A stretch of DNA of 64,000 nucleotides from Chiloscyllium plagiosum (Eukaryota). Position 1 is the stretch's first letter. Every line of letters starts with the position of its first letter. The DNA lies in the NCBI RefSeq assembly GCF_004010195.1, contig NC_057736.1:25007685-25071684 (forward strand). The letters are read 5' to 3'. A model generated the notes under the pieces. It had not been told where the DNA came from, did not search any database, and saw only the letters and a list, made by a program, of their open reading frames with translations. Of the stretch, positions 8,050-58,656 are shown in pieces. Both the position numbers and the translations under genes were made by a program.

Positions 8050-10830
8050 AGGATGATTGCATTATAAAGGAAGAAGGTAAATGAGCTTGTTGCGCAGATC
8101 GAAATTGGCAGGTGAGACATGGTGGGCATTACATCAATAGTAGTCAATAGTAAGAAATTAAATAGGGTCAGATAGTGTATAATCTGTGTGGGTAGAATTG
8201 AGGAACTGCAAAGGTTTTAAAAAAAAACATAGCTGGAGTTAAGTACAGGCCTCCAAAGAGTGGTCAGGAGCTGGGGCGCAAGATACACCAAGAGATAGAA
8301 AAGGTATGTAGGAAAGGCAAAGTTACAGTGATCATTGGGATTTCAATATGCAGGTGGACTGGGAAAATCAGGTTGGTAGTGGATTGCAAGAAAAGGAATT
8401 TGTGGAATATCTATGAGGTGGCTTTTTGGAACAGCTTGTGGAGGAGCCGACTAGGGAACAGGCAATACCGAATTTAGTGGTGTGCAATGAAACAGACTTG
8501 ATAAGGGAGCTTAAGGTGAAGGAGCCTTTAGGAGGTAGTGATCATAATATGATTGAATTTACCCTGCAATTTGAAAGCAATAAGGTAGAATCAGAGGCAA
8601 CGGTATTACACCTGAATAAAGGCAACTACAGATGCATGAGGAAGGAGATGGGTAGAATTGACTGGCAAAGGAGCCTAGCAGAAAAGACAGTGGCACAGCA
8701 ATGGCAGGAGTTTCTGGGAGTAATTTAGGAGACATAGCAGAGATTCATGCTGAGGAAAAAGAAGCATGGTAGAGGAAGGATGAGGCAACCCTGGCTGACT
8801 AGGGAAGTTGAGGATAGCATAAGAGCAAAAGAGATAGCATATAATGTGGCAATGGACAGTAGGAAACCAGAGGGTTGGGAAGCTTACAAAGAGCAAATGA
8901 GGGCAACAAAAAAAAAGTAGTAAGGAGGGAGAAGATTAAATATGAGGGTAAGCTAACCAGTAACATAAAAGGAAGACTATAAGATTTTTCAGACATATAA
9001 AGTGCAAAAGAGAGGGAAAAGTGGATATTGGGCTGCTGAAAAATGACGCTGTCGAGATAGCTGTTGGGAACAAGGAAATGGCTGAGGAACTGAATCATTA
9101 CTTCACATCAATCTTCACGGTGGAAAACATGAGTACTATCCCAAAAATTCAATCACCAGAGAGAAGGTGTTAGAAAAACTGAAAGCTCTGAAAATGGTAA
9201 GTCACCTGGATCAGATGGACTGCATTCTAGACTTCAAAGGGAGACAGCTGAACAGACAGTGGAGTTAATGGTGATCTTTCAAGAGAGTCCCAGAGGACTG
9301 GAAAATTATTAACGTGACACCCCTGTTTAAAAAGGCATTATGGCTGAAGATGGAAAATTACAGACCGATTAGCCAAACCCTGTGGGTAAGATCCTGGAAT
9401 CCATTGTGAAGGATGAGATTTCTGCATACTTGGGAAGTGTCTGATAAAATAGGGCAAAGTCAGCATGGTTTCATCAAGGGGAGGTCAAGCCTGATAAATC
9501 TGTTAGAATCCTTTGTGGAAATAATGTGCAGGTTGGACCAATGAGAGCCAATGGATGATGTTATCTACCTGGACTTCAAGGCGGCTTTTGACAAGGTTAT
9601 ACACAGGAGGCTACTGAATAAGATAAGGCCCCATGGTGTTAGAGGCAAGATGCTAGCATAGACAGAAGCTTGGCTGTCTGGCAGAAAGCAGAGAGTGGGG
9701 ATAAAAAGATCATTGAGGAGAAAGTGAGGTCTGCAGATGCTGGAGATTAGAGCTGGAAATGTGCTGCTGGAAAAGCGCAGCAGGTCAGGCAGCATCCAGG
9801 GAACAGGAGAATCGACGTTTCGGGCATAAGCCCTTCTTCAGGAAAGATCATTCTCAGGATGGCAGCCAGGGACAATTGGTGTTCTGCAAGACTCTGGGTT
9901 GGGATCACAGCTTTTCACTTTATACGTTAACAATCTAAATGAAGGAATTGAGGGGATTCTGGCTTGCAGATGATACAAAGATAGGTAGAGGGACAGATAG
10001 CATTGAGGAGGCGGGGAGGCTGCAGAAGGATTTGGACAGATTAGGAGACTGGGCAACAAAGTGGCCGATGAAGAACAATGTGGGTAAGTGTGAGGTCATA
10101 CACTTTGGTCGGGAGAAAATAGTCAACGTGGCGATTCTAAATGGGAAGAAAATTCAGAAGTCAGAAGTGCAAAGAGACTTGGGAGTTCTAGTCCAGGATT
10201 CTCTCAAGGTAAACTTGCAGGTTGAGTCAGTAGTTAGGAAGGCAAATGCAATGATGGCACTTATTTTGAGAGTACTTGAATGTAAAAGCAGGGATGTACT
10301 TTCGAGGCTCGAATCAGAAGGAAGGATGTACTGGCCCTGGAATGTGTTCAGAGGTGACTCACGAGAATGGTCCCAGGAATGAAAAGCTGAACATATGAGG
10401 GACATTTGAGGACTGTGGGTTTATACTCGAGGGGATTTAGAAGGATGAGGGAGGATTTAATTGAAACATACAGAATACTGAATAGCCTGGATGGATTAGA
10501 TGTTGGGAAGATGTTTTCATTGATAGGAGAGACTAGAACCTGAAGGCACAGCCTTCGAGTAAATGGAAAACCTTTTAGAACAGAAATAAGGAAAAGCTTC
10601 TTCAGTCAGCATGGTGAATAATAGAATTCAGTGCCACAGAAGGCTGTGAAGGCCAGGTCATTCAGTATAGTTAAGACTGAGGTAGATAGGTTCTTGAATA
10701 TCAAGGGGAACAATGGTTACAGAGACAAAGCAGGAGAATGGAGTTATGAAACTGATCAGCCATGACTGAATGCTGGAGCTGACGTGATGGGCAGAATGGC
10801 CTAATTTCTGCTCCTATGTCCTACAGTCAT
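8050..10830 (+). mobile_element. CR1-like LINE, most of ORF2 (EN+RT) plus 3' UTR, degenerate
   Basis: ORFs 8426-8728 (EEPTREQAIPNL...GGSDHNMIEF, endonuclease) and 9939-10382 (LADDTK RT motif, KCEVIHFG, QRDLGV). Many stops and frameshifts. Confidence 0.9.
9715..9842 (-). mobile_element. Short non-autonomous Penelope-type element (family 1) with hammerhead core, nested in the LINE
   Basis: 10-bp TSD AAAGATCATT (9705-9714 / 9843-9852). Minus strand begins CCTGAAGAAGGGCTTATGCCCGAAACGTC. Confidence 0.8.
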
Positions 10831-10909
10831 ATAGCCAATCAATCATTCAACTCAGTTCCCTGTTCAAGCTTTCTCCCCATGCTCTTTGATCCCTTTGGCC
10901 CCAAAAACT

Positions 10910-11220
10910 ATGTGGGAGAGCTCACAGCATAGGAACAGATAAGTGCATAGTTTTAAAGTCTTGCTGTAAATCTACAATAGTGAGCAGAGTGGGTTCTTTC
11001 TTGATTATTTGTTTTATTGAGATCTGTCTCTTGATTAAATTTTAAAAATATAAGCCATAAGTATTAAGTTAGCCTGGAGCAGTCTTTTTTTTAAAACAAC
11101 AATAAGACAATGCTATTTTCTGGATCTGTAGGTTGTGAAGGAGCAAAAGTGGCCTTTTGTAGAGTGATGTGCTCTTCCTGTCAGAGTTTAGAGACAGTTT
11201 TCATGTCACTGATTATTATG
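10910..11220 (+). mobile_element. 5' end fragment of a CR1-like LINE
   Basis: Similar to the reverse complement of ~39950-40290, the 5' part of the long LINE in NCDN intron 5. Confidence 0.6.
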
Positions 11221-11701
11221 TCTCTCTCTCTCTCCCTCTCTTCCCCTCATATGCGCACGCGCACACATCTCAGTCTATGGGGTGAATTTGCATTTGCAGA
11301 ATCATATTTGCAGACACATTCTATTTGTGCTCTAAAAAGCACACAACCTGCAGGCAGTCAATCCATATAACATTTTATAAATTCCTACTTTGGAAATAGA
11401 ACCTGTCTGGTTCAAGACAGACTCTAATTTCATATCTTTAATGCATTGCCTGAGCTGAGATGTCACTCTTTAAATAAAACCTTAAAATTACCTCGAGTGT
11501 GTGACTTGAAAGTAGTTGTGGCTTTACATATTACTGAACAGAAACCTGCAACCCATTCTACAAGATGAAAGACTTAATAGCAATCTAGGTTTGTTCAATA
11601 TATCGTTTTAACTGCGTAACAGGTGATCAAAGTTTGTGAGAAGATTTGTAGCTCGGGTGCTTGTTGCTGTGGTTCTGTTCGCCGAGCTGGAAGTTTTTGT
11701 T

Positions 11702-11741
11702 GCAAACGTTTCGTCCCCTGTCTAGGTGACATCCTCAGTGC
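11702..11741 (-). ncRNA. Minimal hammerhead ribozyme motif (Penelope pLTR)
   Basis: Minus strand: GCA CUGAGGA U GUC A CCU AGAC AGG G GAC GAAA CG UU UGC. Core intact, helix II and 3-bp helix I pair. Confidence 0.75.
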
Positions 11742-12004
11742 TTGGGAGCTTCCCGTGAAGCGCTTCTGAGGTGTTTCCTCCGGCATTTATAGTGGCCTGT
11801 CCCTGCCGCTTCCGGTTGTCAGTTTCAGCTGTCCGCTGTAGTGGCCGGTATATTGGGTCCAGGTCGATGTGTTTGTTGATGGAGTTTGTGGATGAGTGCC
11901 AAGCTTCTAGGAATTCCCTGGCTGTTCTTTGTTTCGCTTGCCCTATAATGGTAGTGTTGTCCCAGAAACACCACAGAAGCGCTTCACAGGAGGATCCCAA
12001 GCAC

Positions 12005-12319: not shown

Positions 12320-12692
12320 ATCCCATGCAAGGTCTGCACAAAACACTATATAGGACAAACAGGAAGACAGCTAACAATCTGTATCCATGAACACCAACTA
12401 GCCATGAAACGACATGACCAGCTATCCCTAGTAGCCACACACGCAGACGACAAGCAACATGAATTTGACTGGGACAACATTACCATTATAGGGCAAGCCA
12501 AACAAAGAACAGCCAGGGAATTCCTAGAAGCATGGCACTCATCCACAAACTCCATCAACAAACACATCGACCTGGACCCAATATACCGGCCACTACAGCG
12601 GACAGCTGAAACTGACAACCGGAAGCGGCAGGGACAGGCCACTATAAATGCCGGAGGAAACACCACAGAAGCGCTTCACAGGAGGCTCCCAA

Positions 12693-12732
12693 GCACTGAG
12701 GATGTCACCTAGACAGGGGACGAAACGTTTGC
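12693..12732 (+). ncRNA. Minimal hammerhead ribozyme motif (Penelope pLTR), overlapping the ORF stop codon
   Basis: GCA CTGAGGA T GTCACCTAGACAGGGGAC GAAA CG TT TGC; identical to the minus-strand copy. Confidence 0.75.
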
Positions 12733-13019
12733 AACAAAAACTTCCAGCTCGGCGAACAGAACCACAGTGACAGGTGATCTTTTGCTCCAAATTCTGTGTC
12801 TTATGGTCCCGCCCACTAGTGACCTGATGAAGGAACAGCGCTCTGAAAGGCAGTACTTCCAAATAAACCTGTTGGACCATAACCTGGTGTTGTGTGACTT
12901 TTCAAACTTTGTCCACCCCAGTCCAACACCGGCACCTCCACATCATGGATAAATTCCAATGAGCAGAGTCTCAATCGGATTCCTCTGTACAGGTGATCAG
13001 CCTTGCAAACATTCTTTAA

Positions 13020-17600: not shown

Positions 17601-19127
17601 ATACAATGTAAACTGGGTTGAATTAAGATTCTGGCAGAAAAGTGCTTGCTTTGCAATTAAAGCTGACAATTTGATTGAATGATATAACTTACTAGTAAAT
17701 GAATTCAATGTGGTCAGACAAAAGCAGCCATACAACAGGAACTTAAGATTCGAAACACATGTCCAACGAAGTAAAATTCCAATTTTTACAGAAGAGGTCA
17801 CAGGGACAAGGAAACTTTCCAACCTCCTATCCATGGCAACAATATTATTGAAGACAACTGCCTGTAGAAAAAAAACAAGTCAAATTTCAATGTAGCAATA
17901 GTCTGGTACTTGCTATGTTTGTCACATCCTCAAAATATAGTATTTAATTTTGTAACAGTAATCACATTAAGTATGACTGATTGTAGTTCCTCATCAATTG
18001 TACACAAGATAAAATAATTCCCATAATGAGAAAGATTGCACAAATATTAAACAAGAACATTTCGCTCAGTGGTACAGTAGGATTATAAAGCCACCATAGA
18101 ATGTTGGAAATAAGTAAATCATTTATGTTACAACTACATCTGAAGAAAAACATCAGTTGGATCTTCAGAAGTTGTGTTTATAGCTGTACCCAAAGGATCA
18201 TTGAAACACTGAAGGAAAATCATATTTTTCTGTTGGATAACCTAAAGGAAAACTACTAACCACCAAGAAATGCAAGATTATGTGAGATTCTTTTGCACTT
18301 ATTTCCTTGTATAAATTCAATGTATAATTCACATCAGAACAAATCAACTCAAGCAGTGTGGATAAACCAATCAAGAGTTTCTTGAAAACTGCTTCAAAAC
18401 AGAACACTGCTAATTCCCATTTATCATAGCTTTATTTATAAGTGGAAAACATACAGAAACAGCTCACCAACTGTCCGATCCAGCCACCAGCTTGCACAGC
18501 CTAATCACCAGATGCCAACAAATATCATGAAATATTTTTTGAATTTCTAATGTTTAAAACAATTGGGAAAAATGCATAGTTAAATGCATGAATCATTTGA
18601 GTTGTCTTTTTTGTCTTGTAGCTTTATTTGAAGACCTCAGCTTCTCCCAAAGGTTTTGCCTATGGGTATAACAATGATATTTGTTGGAATGATGTTGTCG
18701 GCTGAATTTTATTGTTCATGATTGTGCACACAGTGTATCTGAATTTTGTAAGGCGCATCAATACCAAGTAGCTTTAAAAAGGAAGATGTTTTTTCTTCCC
18801 TTCTGCTTTTAGCAGTTAAATGTTGGAAGGGAAGGCCACTGTCAAAAAGTTTTACTAAGGTAGTGCTCATGGCATTTAATTATTTTCCCCTGCATCCAAA
18901 ACAAAAACATCTCAGTGAATTCCACTCTTCTGCACCTTCCTTAAAGCCTGCAAATTCTCTCCCTTTCGCTGGGACGTTTGAAACAGCCATGACCAAATTC
19001 CCAGGCAAAAGAATTCCATACTTAAACCAAAACTTTATGAACATTTTCATTAATTATTCTGACATCACCTTAAAGTGATGCCCTCCAGTTCTCGAGCTTC
19101 TGCAATGGGAACAGACTCTTCTCATCT

Positions 19128-19218
19128 TCCTGAAGAAGGGCTTATGCCCGAAACGTCGATTCTCCTGTTCCCTGGATGCTGCCTGACCTGCTGCGCTTTT
19201 CTAGCAACACATTTTCAG
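19128..19218 (+). mobile_element. Short Penelope-type element (family 1) with intact hammerhead core
   Basis: 12-bp TSD CTCTTCTCATCT (19116-19127 / 19219-19230). CTGAAGA-A-GGGC-TTAT-GCCC-GAAACGTC starts at 19130. Confidence 0.8.
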
Positions 19219-19539
19219 CTCTTCTCATCTATGATTAGGCTTCTCATAATTTTATCCAAAGTTATGAACTTTCTGATCAATCTTCGCTTTTTGAAAGAAA
19301 ATGTAGCCGATTACCATGAACATACAGATTAGGAGAGGTGAACCTGCAACTCAGCCTTTCAAGTCTGCTCTGCAATTCAATAAGATTATGTTGGTCTAAT
19401 TATACGACATTACTAACTAATCTCAATAACCTTTCACTCCATATCATGGATTTATCTCCCTCTGTCTTAAAAAGGTACCAGGACCTCTTCCATCGGCTTT
19501 TGAGAAAGAGTTCCATGGCGATTTTGACATGAATAGAGG

Positions 19540-28188: not shown

Positions 28189-28314
28189 ATGGCATCAAAT
28201 TCAGAAAATCCATGTGCAACTGAAGATATGGCTAGAAACAAGACACTGGACCGATGTCTTCAGGTTCTACAAGAAGCAAAAAATGATAGTGAGCAGTTTG
28301 CAGCACTTCTACTG
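28189..28314 (+). CDS. NCDN: Neurochondrin, coding exon 1 (MASNSENP...EAKNDSEQFAALLL)
   Basis: Acceptor ACAG| at 28174, ATG at 28189, donor CTG|GTAAAA. EAKNDSEQFAALLL matches the recalled NCDN N-terminus. Phase 0. Confidence 0.95.
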
Positions 28315-28984
28315 GTAAAAGCTTTTGGCAATGCTGCTAAGTACAAATATACTGTATATTTTCTGACCAGACTAAGTGTTTCTAGATGAGAATTTTACCC
28401 CTACACTTCCCAATACATGAGTTTTAATTATCATTAAACTAAATTACAGTATGTCTTTCTGCTGTGAATTGCAACTCATTAAGCAGTTAATTTTCCATAT
28501 TTGCAATTTCTATGATAACTTTTTAATCAAGTGCTCATGGCTGAAGCAACAATATCTAAAATTGGCTTGTGGTTTTTGAAAAACATAACAAAAATCCTTT
28601 TTAAGTGAATATTACTGATTGCTGTAATGGATGATATACCGTTGTGAATTTTGAGTAATCGTAACCAAAGTACAGGCAGAAAAACTTCATTGTTAGACTT
28701 TATTTATAAATGTGCATGTTGTATAGTGTTTTTTTTTGGTGTTCATCACCTATTAGAAAATAGAAACATAGGAAAAGAAGCAGTGCATTCCACCATCAAA
28801 TTTACTGATTGATCTATACCTTAACTCTTTCAATTTCGCTTGGTTCTGTAACTCTTGACATTTTTGATAGACAAGAATATTATTTCAGTTTTGAAATTTT
28901 TGATTGAACTGCTTTAAGCTTTCTGCAGGAAGTTCTTGATGTCCACAATTGTCAATCTGTGTTTGTGAATAAAGCACTCATGAA

Positions 28985-29260
28985 TATGATTTGGAGATGC
29001 TGGTGTTGGACTGGGGTGTACAAAGTTTAAAAATTACACAATACCAGATTATAGTCCAACAGGTTTAATTGGAAGCACACTAGCTTTCGGAGCGACGCTC
29101 CTTCATCAGGTGGTTGTGGAGGATACAATTGTAAGACACAGAATTTATAGCAAAAGTTTACAGTGTGATGTAATTGAAATTATACATTGATTGTCTGTTG
29201 AGTCTTTCATCTGTTCGAATACCATGATAGTTTCACTTCTTTCATGTGTAAATCACATAG
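28985..29260 (-). mobile_element. Penelope-type repeat (family 2)
   Basis: Homologous to 11500-11628 plus 12780-12950 and to 39296-39410. Confidence 0.7.
29078..29112 (-). ncRNA. Minimal hammerhead ribozyme motif (family 2), intact core
   Basis: Minus strand: CAC CUGAUGA A GGAGC GUC GCUCC GAAA GC UA GUG. 5-bp helix II, 3-bp helix I, palindromic AGCU. Confidence 0.75.
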
Positions 29261-29264
29261 TCAT

Positions 29265-30445
29265 AATAATAGAGGTGTACAGTGTGGAAACAGACCCTTC
29301 GGTCCAACTCGTCCATGCTGACCACATATCCCAAACTAATCTAGTCCCACCTGTCAGCACTTGGCCCATATCCTTCTAAACCCTTCCTGTTCCTAAACCT
29401 ATCCAAATGCCTTTTAAATGTTGCAATTGTACCAGCCTCCACCACTTCCTCTGGCAGCTCATTCCACACATATACCACCCTCTGCATGAAAATGTTGCCC
29501 CTTAGGTCCCTTTTTATATCTTTCTGCTGTCACCCTAAACTTATGCCCTCTAGTTCTAGATTCCCCCCACCCCAGGGAAAAGACTTGGTCTATTTATCCT
29601 ATCCATGCCCCTCATGATTTTATAAACCTCTGAGGTCCACTCCTCAGCCTTCGACATTCCAGGGAAAACAGCCCCAGTCTATTCAGCCTCTCCCTATAGG
29701 TCAAATCCTCCAACCTTGGCAACATGCTTGTAAATCTTTTCTGAACCCTTTCAAGTTTAACAACATGCTTCTGATAGGAAGCAGACCAGAATTGCACATA
29801 GTATTCTAAAAGTGGCCTAACCAACATCCTGTACAGCCTCAACATGACGTCCCAGTGTCAATACTCAATGCTCTGACCAAGAATGGAAAGCATGCCAAAC
29901 GTCTTTTTCACTATCCTATCCACCTATGACTCTACTTTGAAGGAGCTATGAACCTGCACTCCAGTCTTTATTCAGCAACACTCCCCAGGACCTTACCATT
30001 AAGTGTATAAGTCCTGCTCAGGTTTGCTTTCCCAAAATGCAGCACCTCACATTTATCTAAATTAAACTCCATCTGCCACTCTTCAACCCATTGGCCCATC
30101 TGATCAAGATCTCGTTATAATCTGAGGTAACCTTCTTCGCTGTCCACTATACCTCCAATTTTGGTGTCATCTGCACATTTCCTAACTATACATCCTATGT
30201 ACATATCCAAATCATTTATGAAAATGTACGAAAAGTAATGGACCCAGCACCGATCCTTATGGCACACTGTTGGTCACAGGCCTCCAGTCTGAAAAGCAAC
30301 CCTCCACCACCACCACCCTCTGTCTTCTACCTTTGAGCCAGTTCTGTATCCAAATAGCTAGTTCTCCCTGTATTCCATGTGATCTAACCTTGCAAATCAG
30401 TCCCATGGAGAACCTTGTTGAACTCCTTACTGAAGTCCATATAAA
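29265..30445 (-). mobile_element. CR1-like LINE 3' third (RT plus tail)
   Basis: ORF 29612-29845 (LYRMLVRPLLEY..QFW...LERVQKRFT) and the RT fragment WIQNWLKGRRQRVVV. Confidence 0.9.
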
Positions 30446-34434: not shown

Positions 34435-34659
34435 ATTTCTGTTGCCTGGATTTTGTCACCTTTCAGCTGAAGATGTCCCTCGGAGGATCTTAATTTCATG
34501 CGAGTTTCATGTTTTGCTTCTTCGTTATTTCACACAACAGTGGGAAGTCTTCAGTTCTTCCAAAAATGCACCAATTTTGCCAAATGATGCAGAGATGAGT
34601 CTTCGAACAGCTTGTGGAATTTTTCTGAACCTTGTGGTAACGGAGCCTGCACTGATCAG
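34435..34659 (+). CDS. NCDN: Neurochondrin, coding exon 4
   Basis: GCAG|A...AG|GTATAC; FLLPGFCHLSAED...IFLNLVVTEPALI. Phase 2 to 2. Confidence 0.96.
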
Positions 34660-36307
34660 GTATACGTACCTTATCTCAGTAATGAGGGTCACAGTATTAG
34701 GTGTAGATTTAGTGGAGATGGATGGATTCCTCTCAGTTAGCCCATGCAAATAAAGTTTAGTCTGGCTGGCTCAAGTGCCTGTTGGACCATCAAATTTAGG
34801 CTTTTGTAATATTTGATACAAACCGTAATATTGGTAACCAGTTCAAATTAGCTCATTAGTTGCTAGTGTGGGAAGGGAGGAGAGAGCAACATTTCTCTAT
34901 AAGAAGTTGATAGTGTTTTTATAACCATTATAGTTTATGTATTAATCATAGTCTTCAACTAATCCATTGTTTTTCATTTTAGAGCTGATCAAACTATAGT
35001 TGTTGAAATTTTATCAGCAGCAGATAAACCTCACCTCCGAAGCCTAATGCTGCTGCTATGTTTGTGTTTTTGGTTTTTTTTAAGACCGAAGGTCTGGACT
35101 TTGGACCACATTGCAGGATGACCAGCAACAGTGGTCCTGGGGTTTGGCAGGCACAATGTCCTTTTGGTGTTCTGTTGCTGTCTGGTGTTGGTGCAGAAAA
35201 TCAACCTCTAATTTTAATGCTGGGACAGTGCAAGAGACAGATTTGTTAATACGGTGGCATGGTTGTCTTTTAGTTACCCCACCATTAATGCCCTGCCTTT
35301 TGATGCTGAATATTCTCTGCACAAACATAGTTAAGTAATGGGAATCACAGGGCTGGAGTGATCACTAGTACCATTTGTAAATATTTCCCACCAATTCATC
35401 CTTCCCATTACTCCTGAAGGTGTGACCTTTTGCTGGGATATAATACCTCGCTGAATAAGAATCATTGCTTACATATAAATTTTAAGAGAACTAGTTTAAA
35501 TATTGAATAGGTGATTTAACATTGGAGCTTTACAGCTGGGCCGATGACTCTTTCTTCCCTTCTAAGTTGTATCGCTTATCCTATTTGCCCTTGCAATTAT
35601 TAGTATTGGACTGCATCCATGTGTAGGACCAACAAGGTAAGGCTAGCTGATTGCTGCCTCAAGCTGACAGCATTTATGGTTAACAGTGTTTTTTCTGGAG
35701 CTTACTCACGGATGAGATTTTGTTGAATTAACTTCCACACCTTGCTACGGTCAAATGATGTATAGGTTGTTGGTCTTGTACCATAACTACTTAGCTAATT
35801 TACTTAACCTGAGCTTACCCCATGTGCATTTTCCAGCAGACGTACCATCACTGGGACTGCGCTTTTTCCTTATAGTTTCTAATTTGGTAAGTTGTAATGT
35901 TCCCTACTGCTATCCGAGCTTGAGATCGAAGATCAATCCCAAGTACGTACTTGGTGTATGATTTGACTACTTACTCATCAACCTGCTGAGGTGTCAGAGG
36001 GTCAGAGTAAATGATTTTGAAGTTCACTAAAGGGTCAGATACTTCTTCTGTATCTAATATTTAGTATCCACATTTACAGTTGTCCTGCTGTTCACAGGCT
36101 CGTAATTTATTCATTTGTCTCTCCACTGTAGAGTCTAGAATGATAGCCAGAGAGGTGTACAGCAAGAAACAGAGCCTTCGGTCCAACTCGTCCATGCCGA
36201 CCAGATATCCTAACCTAATCTTGTCCTATTTGCCAGCACTTGGCTCCCATCGCTCTAAACCCTTTCTATTCATATATCCATCCAGATGCCTTACAAATCT
36301 TGTAAGT

Positions 36308-36466
36308 GTTGAAAATGTGTTGCTGGAAAAGCGCAGCAGATCAGGCAGCATCCAAGGAACAGGAGAATCGACGTTTCGGGCACAAGCCCGAAGAAGGGCT
36401 TATGCCCGAAATGTCGATTCTCCTGTTCCTTGGATGCTGCCTGACCTGTTGCGCTTTTCCGGCAAC
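36308..36466. mobile_element. Fold-back (inverted) pair of family-1 Penelope-type elements
   Basis: Left arm ...GAATCGACGTTTCGGGCACAAGCCC, spacer GAAGAA, right arm GGGCTTATGCCCGAAATGTCGATTC... Confidence 0.8.
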
Positions 36467-37942
36467 TATATATACACACCCCCCAATCCAGGCTCCTCAT
36501 GATTTTATAAACCTCTATAAGGTAACCCCTTAGACCCCAACGCTCCAGGGAAAACAGCCCCAGCCAATTCAGCCTCTCCCTATAGCTCAAATCCTCCAAC
36601 CCTGGCAAATCCTTGTCAATCGTTTCTGAATCATTTCGAGTTTCACAACATCTTTCCGATAGAAGGGAGATCAGAATTGCAGAAGTATTCTAAAAGTGGC
36701 CTAACCAGTGTCCTGTACAGCCACAACATGACCTCACAACACCTATACTCGGAGCTCTGGCCAAAGGGGGGAAGCAGACCAAATGCTGCTTTCACTATCC
36801 TATCTACCTGCAACTCCACTTCCAAAGAACTATGAACTGCACTCCAAGGTCTTTTTGTTCAGCATCACTCCCCATAAGGACCTTCCAATTAAGTGTATAA
36901 GTGGTGCCTTGAATTGCCTTTCCAAAATATAGCAGTTCACATTTATCTAAATTAAACTCTGTCTGCCATGTCTTAGCCCATTGGCCTATCTGATCCAGAT
37001 CCTATTGTACTGTAAGGTAACCTCCTTGGCTATCCACTACACCTCCAATTTTGGTGTCATTTGCAAACTTACTAACTATACCTCCTATGTTCACATCCAA
37101 ATAATTTGTATAATTGAGGAAAAGCATTGGACCCAGCGCCGATCCTTGTGGCACACCACTGGTCACAGGCCTCTAGTCTGATAAACAACACTCCACCACC
37201 CTCTGTCTTCTGCCCTCTTCATTACTTATTCAAAAAAACTCAATCAAGTTTGTGCAACATAATTTCCCATGCACAAAACCATGTTGACAATCCCAATCAG
37301 TCCTTGCCTTTCCAAATGCATGTAAATCCTGTCCCCCAGGATTCCGCCCAACAACTTGACCACCACTGATGTCAGGCTCACCCGTCTATAGTTCCCTGGC
37401 TTTTCCTTAAATAGTGGCACCATGTTAGCCAACCTCCAGTCTTCTGGCACCTCACCTGTGATTATTGATAATACAAATATCTCAGCAAGAGGCCCAGCAA
37501 TCACTTTCCTGGCTTCCCACAGAGTTCAAGGGTACACTTGATCAGGTTCTGGGAATTTGTCCACTTTTATGCCTTTTTAAGACTTCCAGAATGACCACTT
37601 CTGTAATATGGACATTTTTCAAGATGTCACCATCTATTTCCCCACATTCTATATCTTCCATCTCCTTCTCTACAGTGCACACTGATGCAAAATACTCGTT
37701 TAGTATCCCCTCCACCCCCCCCAAAATCTCCTGTGGTTCCATACATAAGCCACCTTGCTGATCTTTGAGGGACCCTATTCTCTCTCTACTTACTTAATGC
37801 GTCCTTAATGTGTTGATAGAATACAATTTGGATTCTCCTTAACCCTATTTGCCAAAGCTATCTTACGTTCCTTTTTTGCCCTCCTGATTTCCATCTTAGG
37901 TATACATCTACTGCCTTTATACTCTTTTAAGGTTTCTTTCGA

Positions 37943-37976
<34 letters not shown>

Positions 37977-38009
37977 ACTCACTCACTCACTCACTCTTTC
38001 TCTCTCTCT
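37943..38009 (+). repeat. (TC)n/(TCAC)n microsatellite
   Basis: Directly visible. Confidence 0.9.
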
Positions 38010-39295
38010 GCTGTCCATACATGACATATGCTCCCTTCTTTTTCTTGACCAAAACCTCAATTTCTCTAGTCGTCCAACCTTCCCTTCTATTCTAACAGGA
38101 ATATATTGTCTTTATCTCATTTTTGAAGGCGTCCCATAATCTGCAAACATCTGTCCCTAAGACGTACTTGTCTAATACTGTCAAAATTGGCCTTTCTACA
38201 ATTTAGAACTTCAACTTTTAGATCTGGTCTATCCTTTTCTATCTCTGTTTTAAAATTAATAAAATTATATTGTCTGTTTTCGTGCTGTACACCTCTATGA
38301 CTATTATTTAAATGGTCGCTGGCCCTAAAACACTCCCCCCACTGACACCTTAGTCACCTGCCCTGCCTTATTTCCCAAGAGTGGGTCAAGTTTTGCACCT
38401 TCACATGCACTTTGTACATCTACATACTGAATAAAAATATTTTCTTGTACACACTTAACAAATTCCTCTCCGTCTAAATCCTTGTGGCAGTCCCAGTCTA
38501 TGTCTGGAAAGTTAAAATCGCCCTATTATTCCTACAGATGACTGAGATCTCCTTACAAGTTTTGTTTCTCAATTTCCCAAAGACTATAATACAATCCTAA
38601 TAAAGTGATCATCCATCTCTTATTTCTCTGTTCCACCCAAATAACTTCCCTGGATGTATTTCCAGTAATGTCCTCCCTCAGTACAGCTGTAATGCTGTCC
38701 CTTATCAAAAATACCACTCCCCTTCCTCTCTCTCTATCCTTCCTATAACATTTGTATCCTGGAACATTAAGCTGCCAGTCCTGTCCATCCTTGAGCCATG
38801 TCTTTATATTTGCTATGATATCCCAGTCCTATGTTCCCAACCATGCTCTGAGTTCATCTACTTTCCCTTTTGAATTGAAATAAATATAGTTCAATTTATC
38901 AATCCTACCTTGTTTTCTGCTTTGTTTCTGCCTGCCTTGACTGTTTGACTCCTTTTCCCAACTGTATCAGTCTCAGATTGGTCTTTGATCTTTTTCCTCA
39001 CTATCTCCCTGCCCACCCCCCCCCCCCCCCCCCCAACCTGACTAGTTTAAAATCTCCCGAGCAGGTCTAGCAAATTTCCCAGCCAGTATATTAGACCCCT
39101 TCTAATTCATATGCAATACGTCCTTCGTGTACAAGTCACCTCTATCCAGTAAGCGATTCCAGTGTTCCAAAAATGTGATCCCTTTGCCCCGTACTAGCTC
39201 CTCAGCCTCTCATTCACTTGCTCTATCCTCCCATTCCTACCCTCACTAGTTCGTAGCACCGGGAGTAATCCAGATATTACTACCCTCAAGGACCA

Positions 39296-39410
39296 TCAGC
39301 TACCTGATGAAGGAGCAGTGTTCCAAAAGCTGGTGCTTCCAAATAAACCTGTTGGGCTATAACCTGGTATTGTGTGATTTTTAACTTTGTCCACCTCATC
39401 CAGCACCAGC
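39296..39410 (+). mobile_element. Family-2 Penelope-type fragment with decayed hammerhead core
   Basis: CTGATGAAGGAGCAGTGTTCCAAAAGCTGG (GAAA changed to AAAA), followed by the family-2 tail AAATAAACCTGTTGG... Confidence 0.7.
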
Positions 39411-40788
39411 TCGTCCTGCCTAATTTTCTATTTTCTCTAAAATCTCATCTTTTTCCCTTCCTATGTCTTTATTTCAGTGTGTTCAATGACCTCCTGCTGG
39501 TGCCTCTCCCCTTTGAGGACATTCTGCACCCTCTGAGATATCAATCCTGCACCAAGGAGGCAACGCGCCATTTTGATTTTTCACTGCCCGCCACAGAAAC
39601 ATCTGTCTGTGCCTCTGACAAGAAAGTGCCCTATCGCTATCGATCCCTTGAAACCTGACGTACCCCCTTGTACGTTACAGCCATTCTCAGTGCCAGAAAC
39701 TTGGCTATTCCTGCTTCGTTCCATCACTTTCTTCATTTTCTAAAACCGCATACTTGTTTGAGATGGGGATAGTCACAGGAGACTCCTGCACTACCTGCCT
39801 CCCCCTCCTACCTTTCCTGGAGTAAACCCATCTGCCTGACTGTATCTGCGGCTTTTCTCCCTTTGTATAGCTGCCATCCATCACGCCCATTAGCTCCTTT
39901 TAAATTCCTTATTGCCTCTAACTGCCGCTCCAATTCATCGATTCACAACCAAAGATATTTCATGCAGACATAGTCGTCAGTAACATGGAAACTCTTCCTG
40001 AATTTCCCACATCTGACAGGAAGAGCACGTCACTCTACTAAAGGCCATCTTTGTTCCTTCATAAACTACTGACCCAGGAAATAGCACTGTCTTATTGCCC
40101 TTAAAAAAAAAATTGCTCCAGGTTAACCTAATTTTTGAGGCTTATATTTCAAAAATTAAATCAAGAGCCAGATCTCAATAAAACATAATCCAGAAAGAAC
40201 CCACTCTAGTCACTTTTCGAGATTTACAGCAAAGTTACACTTAAAAACTATACACTTATCTGTTCCTATACTGTGAACTCTTCCAAACAGGTTCCTCCAA
40301 GGTCAGCTGTGAATTTTGCTTTTTGTTCATTTTCTTTTCCTCTGCACTCCAATGTCCAGAGATACTTGAATTCAAACAGCAAAGGCAGTAACTGTGCAGA
40401 TTTACTCCTGTGTCAGACAGCAGCATAAGTGTCTTTCTTTGACCATGTGGTCACTGCCTTTGTGCATCTTCCTCCTTTTTATAGTGTCATTGTTTTGATG
40501 TTTTCTCCCCCAAAATTCCACAACAATGTAACAGCAAATAAAACAGTAATTGCTGCTCCTGGAATTCAAAGAAATCATCTCCAACACCTAAAATACCTTG
40601 AAAGGAGCAGCTCTTAGAATGTTTTCCCATTCTCCATCTTGGATATAATAATTCAAACAATTGTATTGTTAAATGGATTTCAAAGAAGTTTGGTTGAACT
40701 TGTTACATTTGTGTTCTTTCTAAAGGCTTTTTGGTAACATTTTAAAATTTGTTTCTTACACTTTTTTTTTAATAATCTGTCATTGCAG

Positions 40789-40931
40789 GCAGGAAGAATG
40801 TTTCTCATCTTTACTTAGCTTGTTAATGGAATCCTTGCAGTCTTTGCTTTATAGCCAACATCACCTGATTCTTGCTGCTAATTTCACAACTTTGGGCTTG
40901 ATGATGAGTCGCATACTTGCTGACACACCAG
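40789..40931 (+). CDS. NCDN: Neurochondrin, coding exon 5
   Basis: GCAG|G...G|GTACAG; QEECFSSLLSLLMESL...LILAANFTTLGLMMSRILADTP. Phase 2 to 1. Not in the ORF track. Confidence 0.95.
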
Positions 40932-41605
40932 GTACAGAATGAGAACACTGAATCGTTAACTCAACACCCTGTCCCCCACTCCATCATCATCGAGCAGTCT
41001 TAAACACACCATTTACTGTAAAACCAAGGGCTTTTGTGGTGCAGTTGAAGTATTGCTACCTCTGCGCCAGAAGGTGTGGATTGAAGTCCCACCTCTCCTC
41101 TCCATGTTATAGTATATCTGAACAGTTTGATTCAAAGATATCTATAATGTAAAACTGGTATAATTTATAGTACTTTGAGAAGGGAAACCTATAGAACATG
41201 AAAGGATTGTGCATCTTTTACTAGTGCAGTGCTAGAGCAGAAAATAACCAGGTTGATGTAAATGTATGTATTGTGTTAGAGATAGCAGTGGACCTTGTGC
41301 AAGATCAGGAGGGAAAAGTCTTTGCCTGAGCTAGAGTGCAACGGTGGGAGATGAATAATAAGAAAGATGGCATCATGGATCGGTTTGAAGGAAATGGGTT
41401 TCATGGAGGAGATGCATTAATGAGGGTTTGGAGACGAGGCTGAAGTTAAGAGGCTTGAAAATGACAGAAAACACCATGAATCAAAGGAGGGGAGAGGGGA
41501 AAACTGAGGGAGCTTAAAGTGTATTCTGTACTTTGGAGATCAAAAGTTGTCAAACTCGACTTTGGCATTAAACTTGAGAAGTAACCGTGTGCATCTTTTT
41601 TTCAG

Positions 41606-42045
41606 TGTTACAGGGAACTACAGTGTCGAAGGGCTTTTTCCGAGGGGCAATTCACTTTTTGTCAAAAGCACATACAACGCAGCTGAACACGATTGATGAC
41701 CAAACCCAGATTGTGGTGGCTGAGAGATACCAAAAAGCTTGGGATCAAATCTCAGAACTTTGGTTTCTGGGAATGCAGGCATTTAGTAGTTGTGTACCTT
41801 TGCTACCATGGCTACCACAAAGCGTAATTGAATCAGAATGGTTGAGTCACATTTTTGATTTGCTAAATAAGTGTTCTCCCATGACTATGGAGTTTGACCT
41901 CATTGCTGCCTTTCAGTGTGTTTTAGCTGAACTGGCCAAGAACAGCAAACCATGTAGAGACATTATATTGTTAAATAATGGTGAGGAGAAAGCCAACCTG
42001 TATGGAATGGCAGCTTTGGAGCAGTGTGTTTCTCAAAATTACTGA
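41606..42045 (+). CDS. NCDN: Neurochondrin, last coding exon
   Basis: TCAG|TG TTA CAG; LQGT..SKGFF...ELWFLGMQAF..CVPLLPWL...MAALEQC; stop TGA at 42043-42045. Total CDS 2184 nt (727 aa). Confidence 0.97.
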
Positions 42046-42363
42046 CAAGCCAACCTCAACGCAAACTGGCCAAGGAATGATCTGAAGAGGCTTGGAGCTT
42101 GGCTGTACTTCCTTGTAAAATGCTGGTTAAGATTTTTTTTTAAATTAACATTTTATTTAATTTTAGGTTTTGAAGAATTTGACATTTGCTGGTTACATTT
42201 GATCATTCAGCTATTTTGGGAATTGGTTTAACTTAGGAGATGCAACAACTGCAGCTCTCTTTACTCCACACATTCTCTGCTACGCTCACTCCTTTCATCT
42301 TTGGTTGCGAGAAGTTCTAAAATACAGCCCTCTTATATAAATACTTCATAATCAGTATTGTAC

Positions 42364-42377
42364 AATAAAAAAATAAA
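42364..42377 (+). terminator. Tandem AATAAA polyadenylation signals (NCDN proximal)
   Basis: AATAAA at 42364 and 42372, ~320 nt after the stop codon. Confidence 0.6.
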
Positions 42378-43538
42378 TTTTTGACAGTTGTGAATCAGAA
42401 ATGCAAGAAATAATGACTTTTTTACAGCATGGAATTAGTTTGAGTTTACTGCACAGCTGTATCATTGACTAAAAATCCAAGCTAGTTTGAATAGAAAATG
42501 CCCACATCCTGTTATGGCTCAGCTGGTGCTAAATAAATCAGTTTGGATCATTTTAATCCAGTTTTTAATGGGAAAGAGATTGCATCACAGAAATCCTCAG
42601 ATGTGGTAGAACTTGTCCAGACCAAATTGTCAGTTTGAATACGATACTTTTAAAGAAATTATATATGGATGCTGCGGGGAGGAGTTGGGCTTCTAAGTTG
42701 CTATTTTAAGCCATATAATTGAGGCAAAATCTCATCATCGAACCACCTTACCAGAATGAAAATCGGACTTGTTCGGACAAGCATAGAAAAATTCGAAGTA
42801 GCTTAAAATGGAACTGTCAGTAAGACACTTTAGGTCTTGTAGAATTGGATCCCATTAAAGTATCATTTTGTTATGTCATTTTCTGTGCAAAAAATTACTG
42901 CTGTGAATTTTTAGTTTATCTCCTGTAAAATTTCACTGCTTAGATAGGATATCATTCTATTGTCTGTCCTCCAGAGATGATGTGAACTCCTGTTTATAGC
43001 TGTCATTATCTTTTGGCAACTTGATATTGGAGGAATATCATTGGAGACAATGGTTCCAGAAGGGACAAAAAAAAGCTAGGTATGTGCATTGAAACATTAT
43101 TTTTCAAATTGAGCCAGCGAATGTTTGGAAGACAGCTGTGGTGAAACATAGATTTTTGTCTGTTTTACCTGAAAAGGGTCTTTGGTATGCCAGTGATGTT
43201 ATGACTCAACACTGCGTGTGCATGTGTGTGTATGTGTTGGCAGGAGGAAGGTGGTGGTGTTATTCTTTTAGATCAATTTCTGGTGTTCTATTCATGAATT
43301 GTCTTTAACAGTTCAGAATCTTTTCTGTGATGAGGGAGCATATCCCGTAGGTCCACCGTCTTTTCTTTCTTGTTATAAGACTCAAAATATTTTTTAATTC
43401 CCAATTTCAAAGTTTGGAACAATTCCCAATTGTCTAATGTAATTCCTAATTCATCTAAATATGTCTTAAGCTATTACTTTAGTGCTGTATATGAAGTTAA
43501 AGAAAATAACTTGTACACTGCTTCTATTAAAGAACATT

Positions 43539-43730
43539 AGAGTCGAAAAAGGTGGTACTGGAAAAGCACAGCAGGTCAGACAGCATCAGAGGAGCAGAAG
43601 AGTCTATGTTTCGGGCATAAGACGTTCCTGATGAAGGACTCCTGCTCCTCAGATGTTGCCTGACCTGCGCTTTTCTAGCGCTATCCTTTTCGACTCTGAC
43701 TCTCTAACATCTGCAGTCCTCACTTTTTCC
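43539..43730. mobile_element. Family-1-related fold-back insertion
   Basis: TSD (C)TATTAAAGAACATT (43524-43538 / 43730-43744). Inverted arms with an internal CTGATGA remnant. Confidence 0.75.
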
Positions 43731-43847
43731 TATTAAAGAACATTTGTTGAGAAAAACAAAGCTGAAAGTAATTTCTGCATGTTTTCTATATTTTTGTGCT
43801 TTCGCAAATTAAATTGCTGGCATAAAATGTACAGTCTGTTAATTGGC

Positions 43848-44640: not shown

Positions 44641-45034
44641 AAGAGGCTGGTATCCCATCACCCTTTATTTACACATGGAAAGTGCTTAACACTGATCCAG
44701 TTTCCCAAGAGCCAGCTCTCAGTGAACAGAACCTCCTGACATTCTTGTTTCTATCTGCCAATCAGGACCTCTGATTTGTGGCTATTAACCTGGTCCAGAG
44801 TTGAAAAATGTGGTGCGAGAGAAACACAGCAGGCCAGGCAGCATCCGAGGAGCAGGAGAATTGACATTTCGGGCATAAGCCCTTCTTCAGGAATGATTCC
44901 TGAAGAAGGGCTTATGCCCGAAATGTCAATTCTCCTGCTCCTCGGATGCTGCCTGGCCTGCTGTATTTTTCCAGCACCACATTTTTCAACTCTATTAATC
45001 TGGTCCACCTGGCTGACCTTGTTACAATCACTAC
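44641..45034 (-). mobile_element. Possible solo-LTR-like repeat hosting the hairpin insertion
   Basis: Minus strand starts TGTAGTGATTGTAAC... and contains AATAAA. The other end is truncated by the SINE. Confidence 0.35.
44797..44993. repeat. Near-perfect 197-bp palindrome formed by two head-to-head family-1 elements
   Basis: 98-bp arms around G44895, ~4 mismatches. TSD ATTAA[C/T]CTGGTCC (44784-44796 / 44994-45006). Confidence 0.9.
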
Positions 45035-55839: not shown

Positions 55840-57090
55840 GTGAGTAACAGCCCTTGAAATCAAGACTGTTTAGCAAAAGGCGCCCAAGGAAAACTGGAAT
55901 CATGGGTATCAGGAAAATTTCCTGCTGGTTGGAGTCATACCTGGCACAGAGGAAGGTGGTTGTGGTTGTTGGAGATCAGTGCTCCTCAGGGTAGTTTTTC
56001 TTGGCCCAAGTCTCTTCAGCTGCTTTATTGGTGACTTTCCCTCTAAAATAAGCTCCGAAGTGGGGATGTTCGCTGTTGACTCTCAATTCCTTTTCTTCCA
56101 AAGCAGTCTATGTTCAAATGCAGCAAGATCTGGGTGATATCTAGGCTTGGGCTGACAGGTGGCATGTAATATTTACACCACACAAATATCAGAATGTGGT
56201 GCTGGAAAAGCACAGCAGGTCAAGCAACATCTGAGCAGCGGGAGAATCAACGTTTCGGGCAAAAACCTCATTCTAGTCTCCTCCTCCTCAGATGCTGCCT
56301 GACCTGCTGAGCTTTTCCAGCATCTCTGGCATCTGCAGTCCTCACTTTGACCACACAAATACCAGGCAATGGACGTCTCCAATAAACGACAGTATAATTT
56401 CTGCCTCTTGACGTTCAATGGTGTTACCATCCCTGAATCGCTCACTATCTGTATTCTGGGGATTATCGTTGACCAGAAAATCTAACTGGATGCTGCATAA
56501 ACTGTAGCTACAAGAGTAGATCAGAGGCTAAGAATACTGTGGTGAGTAACTCACCTCCTGACTTCCCAAAGCCTGTCCACAATCTACAAGGCGTGTGATG
56601 GAGTATTTCCCATTTGGCTAGGTCAGTGCAGCTCCCACAACTCGAAAGAACCTTGACACCATCCAGGTCAAGGCAACTCATTTAATTGGTACCGCATCCA
56701 CGCCCTCCACTATCAAGGCTCAGTAGCAGCAGTGTACCATTTACACAATGCACTGCAGAAATTCACCAAAGATCCTTGGGTCCGAACCAATGACCACTTG
56801 CATCCAGGTGGACAAGGGCAGCAGATACATGGGGCCGCCACCACTGAAAGTTCCCCTCCAAGACACTCACTAGCCGAACGTAGAGGTATATAGCTTTTCC
56901 TTGGCTGTTGTTGGGTTACAATCCTGGAATTTCTTCCCTCAGGGCATTTGTGTCAAGCTGCCACATATGGACTTTAGCAGTTCAAGAATGCAGCTCGCCA
57001 GTACTTTTTTTTTCAAGGACTATGAGGGGCAAGGAATAAAATGCTGGTCAGCCATGAAATGGCCATGTATCATGAGTGACTTTTTAAAAA
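55840..57090 (+). mobile_element. Decayed LINE RT/3' fragment
   Basis: WLESYL-AQRK-VVVVG and FA(V)D RT-like remnants. Tail shared with the SacSINE-like elements. Confidence 0.65.
56189..56349. mobile_element. Family-1-related fold-back insertion
   Basis: 12-bp TSD ACCACACAAATA (56177-56188 / 56350-56361), with inverted arms. Confidence 0.75.
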
Positions 57091-57217
57091 AAAATTGACT
57101 GAGCAAGTAGTTCACTTTATTGCATTATTGTGCATTTTATAAATCATGTTACTTTATTTTGCTTATTTGTACAGTTTCTGCAATAATTTCTTAGTTACTC
57201 TTACGTCTGTTTTTTAG

Positions 57218-57295
57218 AGAATGAATCTAGTGCCATCTGGTGAGAATCTCCAGGATTATGATTGCGAGGAAGCTTTGCAAGTAGAGGAAAAAAAG
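57218..57295 (+). CDS. CLSPN: Claspin, coding exon 5
   Basis: TTTTTAG|AGA...AAG|GTGATA; 78 nt, open, phase 0 to 0, RMNLVPSGENLQDYDCEEALQVEEKK. Bridges exons 4 and 6; sequence divergent. Confidence 0.75.
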
Positions 57296-58527
57296 GTGAT
57301 ATTTGACTAAGACAAGCTTAATGTTGATGCTTCAACCCATCACCATTTAAAATGAAGTAATATATCCAATGTGTCATTTTTTTATGAAAATAAAGCCTTC
57401 ATAATGATACCAGGGATGACTAAATATTATTCTCGATTCCTTCTCCCATTCTTCTGTCCTTGACATCATATCTTAAAAATCAAAATTTTACAAGCCTATC
57501 TTCTTTTGTTTTGTTTTGAACAGAATATATTTTTTAAAACAAAACTTACAGCTGATGTACATTATCATCTGACAGGTTTCTTTAACCATTCAGTCCTTGG
57601 AAAATTGTTCTGGTTGAAGGTTGTTTGCAGTACATAATCACCTTTTAGTGGTTCATGGATAGCTACCATGTTCTATGCAATGTGGTGTCCCATAAACTAA
57701 ATAGCCGCTTATCTCTAACAGAAAATAAAAGCCCATGGCCCCTCCTGGACGATAGCTGATTACTCCATCTTGAATCAGTCGATATTTGACAATTTAAAAT
57801 AACTATACAAGGAGAGATATTTGGTAAACTATTAATGAGTACAAAAAGTAGTTAAATTGTAGTGTGGCATTGAGTGCTAAATGCTCGATTCAGACATTTG
57901 AAATTGATTTATTAGTTTCTTCTACTAGAAGAAAGTTCCTGTTTTTACGTAAACGTTACATTTGCGATTAATGTGGTGAATAGTTTTGAATCTCCGTCCT
58001 CATTTAAAATAAGAGGTAATTACATTGAAAAATTCAAGATTTTGAAGCAATTTAATTGGGTGGACGTGGACTTAAGGTTACAGGCTTGATGCTCTATACA
58101 GTTTACTCCTACTCCTGGTGCTCTTCAGAGGCGTGTATGGGGAATAAATGTTCACTATACTAGTTGGCTGAATTACCTGTTTCTTTGCAGTAAGTGCTGC
58201 TTATTTTTAAATGGTTGCATGCTCAACCCAAATTCTAAGCCGACAGTAATGTGGAGCTGAGGTCACAAGCTATATCTGAATATAGATTTGAAGTATACTT
58301 AAGATTTGAGATGTAATATCTGTCATACCAGTTCCAATGAATGTGGTTTATGAAGTTATGCTGCAAATGCAAAATTAAGCTGTTAGGTGCATACCTGCTG
58401 AAGGAACAATGGTCATGATGTCACCATCCATCATGAATAGATGTGCAGAGAAAATAAGTGCTCGTTTGTAAAATGTAAAAGGATATTACTCACATTGTGA
58501 TATTTGATATTACTTCATTTATCAGTG

Positions 58528-58656
58528 ATTCCTGAAGAAGGGCTAATGCCCGAAACGTCGATTCTCCTGTTCCCTAGATGCTGCCTGACCTGCTGCGCTT
58601 TTCCAGCAACATATTTCCATCTCTGATCTCCAGCATCTGCAGACCTCACTTTCTCC
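58528..58656 (+). mobile_element. Short Penelope-type element (family 1) with intact hammerhead core (58532-58559)
   Basis: 13-bp TSD TCATTTATCAGTG (58515-58527 / 58657-58669); CTGAAGA-A-GGGC-TAAT-GCCC-GAAACGTC. Confidence 0.85.

What the first reader, a model, noticed from the sequence alone, without database searches (positions are those of the whole stretch)
9715..58656. Three distinct families of minimal hammerhead ribozymes scattered through the introns
Seen in sequence: three otherwise unrelated repeats share one architecture, CUGANGA + one extra nt + helix II + GAAA + 2 nt + UH. Family 1 is CUGAAGA-A-GGGC-UUAU/UAAU-GCCC-GAAA-CG-UC (9814-9841 -, 19130 +, 58532 +). Family 2 is CUGAUGA-A-GGAGC-GUC-GCUCC-GAAA-GC-UA (29078-29112 -; decayed at 12824 and 39304). 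Family 3 is CUGAGGA-U-GUC..GAC-GAAA-CG-UU (11702-11741 -, 12693-12732 +). Helix II differs in sequence between families yet always pairs, and helix III is always replaced by a palindrome (ACGU or AGCU). Established knowledge: Penelope-like elements carry minimal type I hammerheads that lack helix III and are thought to cleave as dimers. Inference: about a dozen copies or remnants in 64 kb implies a very large genome-wide ribozyme-bearing PLE/retrozyme population in this lineage, probably little characterised.
Basis: partly seen in the sequence, partly recalled or inferred. Interest (0 to 1): 0.8.

Follow-up and report, generated by a model that had tools for sequence, protein, structure and literature searches.

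The report
Penelope-element hammerhead stubs in a shark
The motifs are real and sit in the end repeats of three families of Penelope-like jumping genes, an arrangement already described; this shark-like genome holds over 70,000 exact copies, mostly short stubs that were likely copied from the uncut front end of the element's RNA.

Summary
Observation confirmed; the kind is known. Six motifs have a full core with palindrome, and 16 family fragments lie in the window. Each family is the pseudo-LTR end of a Penelope-like element (PLE): RT and GIY-YIG-type parents were found for all three. This is the min-HHR of Cervera and De la Pena 2014. Exact genome counts: 41,377, 18,528 and 13,103. Extras: (1) 88 of 133 young family 1 copies start at the motif's 5' edge and 4 at the cut site, so most were made from uncut RNA. 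(2) 99 of 108 head-to-head pairs have one long and one short arm. (3) Family 2 has a poly(A) signal 12 nt after the predicted cut, and poly(A) reads end there. Against: no cleavage is shown, a cut-site footprint was inconclusive, family 1 shows no covariation, and only NCDN introns are proven hosts. The scan has noted this on other DNA: 284 findings held my search words. New members of a known kind.

The parts
9716..9844 (-). Family 1 stub, intact min-HHR core 9814-9841, long 3' end (+98), 10-bp target duplication; inserted in an old LINE fragment
11627..11965 (-). Family 3 insertion, left arm, intact core 11705-11738, long 3' end (+78)
12320..12767 (+). Family 3 insertion, right arm: end of a GIY-YIG-type ORF (read by eye; no Pfam hit), intact core 12696-12729, short 3' end (+38); gap of N at 12005-12319
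12780..12945 (+). Family 2 copy, decayed core at 12824
19127..19222 (+). Family 1 stub, intact core 19130-19157, short 3' end, 12-bp target duplication
28987..29253 (-). Family 2 copy, intact core 29081-29109, ATTAAA at 29069-29064, antisense in an NCDN intron
36310..36466 (.). Family 1 head-to-head pair, both cores broken, in an NCDN intron
39302..39410 (+). Family 2 copy, decayed core, sense in an NCDN intron
43548..43731 (.). Old family 1 head-to-head pair, cores broken, at or just past the NCDN 3' UTR
44796..44984 (.). Family 1 head-to-head pair, cores 44863-44890(-) and 44900-44927(+), palindrome broken (UG for CG)
56193..56348 (.). Old family 1 head-to-head pair, cores truncated
58528..58657 (+). 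Family 1 stub, intact core 58532-58559, long 3' end, 13-bp target duplication
28230..43427 (+). Host gene context: neurochondrin (NCDN) exons
   Evidence: Pfam PF05536 in six frames; spliced contigs

Best explanation
The motifs are minimal type I hammerhead motifs in the pseudo-LTRs of three Penelope-like retrotransposon families, and the window's copies are truncated insertions that were likely reverse-transcribed from uncut element RNA. Shown: parent elements with RT and GIY-YIG-type endonuclease, the motif in both end repeats, two 3' end classes about 36 nt apart, target duplications, head-to-head pairs with one long and one short arm, and 5' ends piled at the motif's 5' edge in families 1 and 2. 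Inferred: the element protein cuts both DNA strands and starts RT at two internal sites just 3' of the hammerhead, as shown in vitro for the anole element PAc; starting near the 5' end of the mRNA, RT runs off after 90-130 nt at a start site about 4 nt before the core, which gives the stubs. Inferred from literature: the motif in an active element is a weak, dimer- or protein-dependent ribozyme. The isolated genomic stubs are probably inert.
For: Full elements: family 1 L195 (pLTR-ORF-pLTR) and a 749-aa frame in L193 with DKG, YIDD, CX4CxxC and GIY-YIG motifs; its homologues carry RVT_1, some also GIY-YIG. Family 2 L072, repeats flanking an RT frame, GIY-YIG-like motif in L071 and L075. Family 3 RT in L080 (RVT_1 E 5.7e-11), endonuclease end in the window, ATG inside the motif 28 nt before the cut (26 in PAc). 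5' ends: 88 of 133 young F1 and 43 of 86 young F2 copies at the 5' edge; 4 and 1 at the cut; unselected subset 18 of 32 and 20 of 33; target-duplication-defined ends 27 of 35 in -35..-23. Pairs long+short: 59 of 66, 32 of 34, 8 of 8. G before ATTCC in 65 of the first 100 of 6,524 non-C junctions, 26% expected. Family 3 pairs covary.
Against: No cleavage was observed. The start site and cap are not shown: no 5'-end reads were obtained. In the copies with G and a called target duplication the G lies inside the duplication (5 of 5), so target preference explains it as well as a cap does. Family 3 lacks the pile-up (0 of 24 young copies at the edge). Family 1 shows no covariation beyond shuffles. 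Minimum-energy folds do not give the active fold for family 1. Part of the sample was picked by an intact core, which favours 5' ends at or before the core. Clades were assigned by motif, with no tree against reference PLEs.
Confidence: 0.88

Rival explanations
1. Same elements, but the 5' pile-up comes from RT stalling at helix I, or from endonuclease trimming or microhomology joining at ATT, not from a transcription start.
For: PAc endonuclease prefers 5'-ATT-3' (PMC11167929) and the family 1 edge reads ATTCC. Junction microhomology is common. The family 2 cluster is broad (-41 to -28).
Against: Helix I is only 2-3 bp. Family 3 has the same architecture and no pile-up. G, not the element's own C, is in excess among non-C junctions. 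The edge reads TCATTCC, which fits the initiator consensus (recalled).
Confidence: 0.3
2. The stubs are non-autonomous ribozyme-bearing SINEs or retrozymes that amplify from their own short or circular RNAs.
For: Uniform 90-130 nt size; very high copy number; Li et al. 2026 report tandem retrozymes in one chondrichthyan.
Against: Sequence is continuous with full PLE ends; 5' ends grade into long copies; no tandem arrays among the window's copies; copies span the cut site instead of starting there. Family 2 poly(A) reads end at +28 to +32, short of both 3' end classes.
Confidence: 0.08
3. Intact intronic copies act as host regulatory ribozymes or terminators.
For: Family 2 carries a poly(A) signal that is in use at some loci; head-to-head pairs form long hairpins.
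Against: The intact NCDN-intron copy is antisense to the gene and the sense ones are broken; spliced NCDN contigs are normal; 10 of 16 window copies have a broken or missing core or palindrome.
Confidence: 0.05
4. Chance matches to a short descriptor.
For: Rfam finds no hammerhead here.
Against: 50 hits against 0-2 in controls; same architecture in three PLE families.
Confidence: 0.01

Closest known systems
Minimal hammerheads (min-HHR) in pLTRs of metazoan PLEs (Cervera and De la Pena 2014, PMC4209133; parts 1-2 of 4 read, supplements not read)
   Same: Core, extra nucleotide after A9, G10.1-C11.1 pair, palindromic 15.2-16.2, no helix III, several families per genome, mostly single truncated copies and some close opposite-strand pairs.
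   Different: Sharks are not named in the text read. Counts there are about 4,000 (coelacanth) and 9,000 (Xenopus) against at least 73,008 here, by different search methods. Helix I is shorter here (2-3 bp against 4-5 in Schistosoma).
PAc, Poseidon element of Anolis carolinensis (Frangieh et al. 2024, PMC11167929; parts 1-2 of 4 read)
   Same: Two RT start sites that define the tail, both strands extended, start codon inside the hammerhead (family 3), uncut RNA as main template.
   Different: Activity is shown in vitro for PAc and not here. A 5' pile-up at the motif edge and a poly(A) site after the cut are not described in the parts read.
EN+ PLE clades Neptune and Penelope/Poseidon (Craig et al. 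2021, PMC8557442; passages)
   Same: RT then GIY-YIG, pLTRs, inverted truncated copies, 30-40 bp tail often at one end only; CX2-5CxxC linker in family 1.
   Different: Clades assigned by motif only; the family 2 linker was not seen intact.
Metazoan non-LTR retrozymes (Cervera and De la Pena 2020, PMC7229834, passages; Li et al. 2026, 10.64898/2026.07.22.740005, parts 1-3 of 5)
   Same: Type I hammerheads at high copy number (126,247 in axolotl); derived from PLE pLTRs according to Li et al.
   Different: Those are tandem repeats, mostly with canonical ribozymes and circular RNAs; these are dispersed PLE stubs.

Membership tests
PLE min-HHR | CUGANGA and GAAA-NN-UH core around helix II | tested here: met
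   6 full motifs in the window; 50 in 780 kb against 0-2 in controls
PLE min-HHR | One extra nucleotide between A9 and helix II; G10.1-C11.1 pair | tested here: met
   49 of 50 hits with the extra base (the script tried this register first); first pair G-C in 35 and G-U in 10 of 50
PLE min-HHR | No helix III; palindromic positions 15.2-16.2 | tested here: met
   30 of 50 self-complementary; 16 more are TG or CA, the CpG decay products
PLE min-HHR | Short helix I | tested here: met
   2 bp plus one (F1), 3 bp (F2, F3); outer F3 pair occurs as GC, CG and UA
PLE min-HHR | Compensatory changes between families and subfamilies | tested here: inconclusive
   F3: 2 of 10 pairs with double changes, score 0.339 against 0.201 shuffled, 8 distinct rows; F1: not above shuffles; F2 not counted; rows were selected by the descriptor
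PLE min-HHR | Located in the pLTRs of a PLE | tested here: met
   L195, L072, L077
PLE min-HHR | Self-cleavage as dimer or with protein help | not testable with these tools
   Genomic footprint inconclusive; no read pile-up listed at a cut site
EN+ PLE | Single ORF with RT and C-terminal GIY-YIG | tested here: met
   F1 in one frame (L193; GIY-YIG E 1.8e-4 in L060, under Pfam's cut-off); F2 and F3 from separate broken copies
EN+ PLE | 30-40 bp tail and inverted truncated copies | tested here: met
   Two 3' end classes in all families; 99 of 108 pairs long+short
Neptune clade (F1, F2); Penelope/Poseidon clade (F3) | CX2-5CxxC linker present or absent; RT phylogeny | tested here: inconclusive
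   Linker seen in F1, not seen intact in F2, absent in the F3 piece of L081; no tree built
Non-LTR retrozyme | Head-to-tail tandem units, each with a hammerhead | tested here: not met
   Window copies are single or head-to-head; the genome as a whole was not scanned for arrays

The most novel reading that the evidence does not exclude
Most hammerhead stubs in this genome are strong-stop-like cDNAs of the capped, uncut first 90-130 nt of PLE mRNA, laid down singly or as a pair by one cut that primes two cDNAs from the two RT start sites. The hammerhead then sits about 4 nt from the cap at the 5' repeat and about 30 nt before the poly(A) site at the 3' repeat, so cleavage would decap or detail the mRNA: a protein-triggered off switch for translation, not a step in making the template.
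Probability: 0.35. Interest if true: 0.6.

Novelty: new member of a known kind. Interest (0 to 1): 0.3.

Why it matters
The class is described, so the motif itself would not surprise a specialist. The value is in scale and in the record of ends. At least 20 exact motifs per Mb make this a very rich source of PLE hammerheads, and young families with long open frames give material for the open question of what the PLE hammerhead does. The copy ends give testable predictions: a start site at -32, uncut template, two RT starts per cut, and a poly(A) site just after the cut in family 2.

Tried and rejected
Rfam scan of the window: no hammerhead family. Cleavage footprint in family 1: 739 genome matches start at the cut against 421 at a control position 2 nt further on; of the first 30 inspected, 18 were flagged as inversion junctions, many with microhomology, 9 were indels, decayed inversions or deletions, and 3 were clean joins to other DNA (sorted by eye): inconclusive, one control position only. 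U6 fused at the cut (lead from earlier notes): 18 family 1, 0 family 2 and 1 family 3 matches to a T-run pattern; none of 9 loci inspected (8 of the 18, plus 1) held U6; a narrow test that does not refute the lead. Energy folds of monomers and homodimers: active fold not recovered for family 1; a short intermolecular helix over the palindrome appeared for families 1 and 3: weak. Run X22 laid no reads (no test); X1 and X2 are contigs only guessed to be RNA; no RNA holder was listed. A closer read lay on a young family 2 copy was not obtained, so the share of cut molecules and 5' ends stay open. Host genes outside NCDN were not identified (150 of 176 long frames and 129 shorter ones scanned). 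Lunse et al. (RNA Biol 14:1499) is not held: only its title was seen. One search counts held duplicates from overlapping loci and were replaced; two L240 copies with the same flanks may be one event.
Full report
Observation. Six have the whole core with a self-complementary A-NN-U, two more have the palindrome broken, and the window holds 16 fragments of the three families from about 11 insertions. A descriptor (CUGANGA, helix II of 3 bp or more, GAAA-NN-UH) gave 8 hits in the window against a mean of 0.15 in 20 first-order Markov controls, and 50 hits in eight unselected 100-kb blocks (780 kb without N) against 0-2 in five controls. Rfam has no matching model at E<=5.

Setting. The genome is 3.56 Gb. 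The closest homologues of the family 1 protein are from Chiloscyllium, Rhincodon and Mobula, so the host is probably an elasmobranch. A neurochondrin gene lies on the + strand at about 28.2-43.4 kb. The copies at 29.1, 36.3 and 39.3 kb are in its introns. Host genes for the other copies were not identified.

Copy number. Tight patterns match 41,377 (family 1), 18,528 (family 2) and 13,103 (family 3) places, with 0 for each reversed pattern. Scaling 50 hits per 780 kb gives about 2e5 descriptor-positive motifs; this is an extrapolation from eight blocks. Cervera and De la Pena give about 4,000 for coelacanth and 9,000 for Xenopus, and 126,247 canonical motifs for axolotl. Methods differ, so the numbers are not strictly comparable.

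What the families are. Family 1: L195 holds two direct repeats, each with the motif, around an ORF that starts 134 nt after the predicted cut; L193 has a 749-aa frame with DKG, YIDD, a CX4CxxC linker and a GIY-YIG motif. That fits the Neptune clade as defined in passages of Craig et al. 2021. Family 2: L072 has direct repeats 2.5 kb apart around a broken RT frame whose ATG lies 92 nt after the cut, at the end of the tail; a GIY-YIG-like motif lies upstream of family 2 motifs in L071 and L075. Family 3: the window itself has the end of an endonuclease frame before the motif (by eye, no Pfam hit), L080 has an RT (E 5.7e-11), and the ORF starts at an ATG inside the motif, 28 nt before the cut, as in the anole Poseidon element PAc (26 nt). 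The family 1 protein is 32% and 26% identical to those of families 2 and 3. Clades rest on motifs only.

Structure. Helix I is 2 bp plus one pair in family 1 and 3 bp in families 2 and 3. In family 3, 8 distinct rows give compensatory changes in 2 of 10 pairs (score 0.339 against 0.201 shuffled; related rows can inflate this). Family 1, 28 distinct rows, does not exceed shuffles. Both sets were chosen by a descriptor that demands helix II.

Ends of copies. I mapped 315, 124 and 38 unique copies in 1.4 Mb made of the window, the unselected blocks and loci picked by an intact core; loci picked for long upstream sequence were left out. All families have two 3' end classes about 36 nt apart, the PLE tail. 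Head-to-head pairs have one long and one short arm in 59 of 66, 32 of 34 and 8 of 8 cases (unselected: 20 of 25, 14 of 14, 4 of 4). This fits the in vitro result that PAc cuts and extends both strands from two internal RT starts, and the remark that the tail is often at one end only. Among young copies (90% identity or more in the tail), 5' ends fall from 12 nt before to 1 nt after C3 in 88 of 133 (F1), 43 of 86 (F2) and 0 of 24 (F3); within 4 nt of the cut in 4, 1 and 0. In the unselected subset: 18 of 32, 20 of 33, 0 of 8. Target duplications, which do not depend on the reference, put 27 of 35 family 1 ends between -35 and -23 (11 of 13 unselected). Most copies therefore span the cut site and came from uncut RNA, as Frangieh et al. 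found in vitro.

Why the pile-up. The commonest family 1 start is the A of TCATTCC, 4 nt before C3, which fits the initiator consensus (recalled). Drosophila Penelope starts transcription inside its pLTR (PMC2377424, passages). Of 6,524 copies with a base other than the element's C before ATTCC, 65 of the first 100 listed have G (counted by hand; 26% expected), and 9 of 14 single copies do. A copied cap would give this; I took that lead from earlier notes. But in all 5 such singles with a called duplication the G belongs to the duplication, so target preference or microhomology remains possible. Family 3 shows no pile-up.

Cleavage in vivo. Not shown. 739 copies match a pattern that starts at the family 1 cut against 421 at a control position; only 3 of 30 inspected were clean joins. 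A search for U6 joined at the cut found none in 9 loci. No pile-up of read ends at a cut site was listed, but a 30-nt cut fragment would hardly be recovered in such a library.

Poly(A) site. Family 2 has ATTAAA or AATAAA 12 nt after the cut (16 and 13 of 46 pattern hits, some of them chance), followed by a GU-rich stretch. In one single-cell poly(A) run (about 2% read), 208 and 177 reads carry poly-T ends at 29049 and 29052, 28-32 nt after the cut, and 309 first mates of that direction cover 29113, beyond the core. The reads resemble younger family 2 copies elsewhere, not this locus. The signal is thus in use at some loci, on RNA that is not cut. One sample only. Families 1 and 3 lack such a hexamer within 100 nt in the reference copies.

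Comparison and novelty. Every sequence feature of the min-HHR of Cervera and De la Pena 2014 is met; activity could not be tested. Tandem retrozyme structure is not met in the window. Eight searches of the library found no paper on dispersed PLE hammerheads in sharks; Li et al. 2026 included one chondrichthyan for tandem retrozymes and PLEs. Supplements of these papers and Lunse et al. were not seen and may list shark motifs. The scan has reported the same reading on other DNA (284 findings held my search words; 909 notes in this genome fit 'hammerhead'), including the 5' pile-up, the cap idea and the poly(A) signal; these notes are not independent support. Verdict: real, new members of a known kind, interest 0.3.

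Noticed in passing
window 28230-43427 (+): Neurochondrin gene; spliced contigs cover exons 31073-32079, 33388-33629, 34433-34656 and 41603-43427.
   Followed up: partly
window 25619-26044: End of a 3.6-kb transcript contig; possibly the first exon of a minus-strand gene head-to-head with NCDN (KIAA0319L by human synteny, recalled, untested).
   Followed up: no
window 48600-48950 and 53797-54354 (+): GC-rich stretch and an acidic, lysine-rich 186-aa frame that look like exons of another gene (claspin-like by recall; no Pfam hit).
   Followed up: partly
window 9842-9716 (-), 3' of the family 1 cut: Family 1 tail holds a branch-point-like CTGAC, a pyrimidine run and several CAG acceptor-like sites; sense copies in introns could be spliced into host RNA.
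   Followed up: no
window 11627-12945; L024, L032, L033, L016, L075: Copies of different PLE families often sit next to or inside each other (family 3 next to family 2; family 1 inside family 2).
   Followed up: no
L007 (G000:C1:350846): A family 1 copy is preceded by a piece of its own tail, inside one target duplication, as if the template had been entered twice.
   Followed up: no
L189 3589-7240: An 18-codon unit from the family 1 ORF is repeated dozens of times in tandem; may be an assembly artefact.
   Followed up: no
L111:5545-5581, L115:9491-9527 and 'other' rows: Further hammerhead subfamilies with other helix I and II sequences (helix I of 4-6 bp) occur in the unselected blocks.
   Followed up: partly
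window 44855-44935: Rfam MIR533 hit (E 3.5e-6, under its threshold) is only the hairpin of a head-to-head family 1 pair.
   Followed up: yes
L065-L068, L071, L080: Assembly gaps fall often inside long PLE insertions, so long copies are under-represented in this assembly.
   Followed up: no
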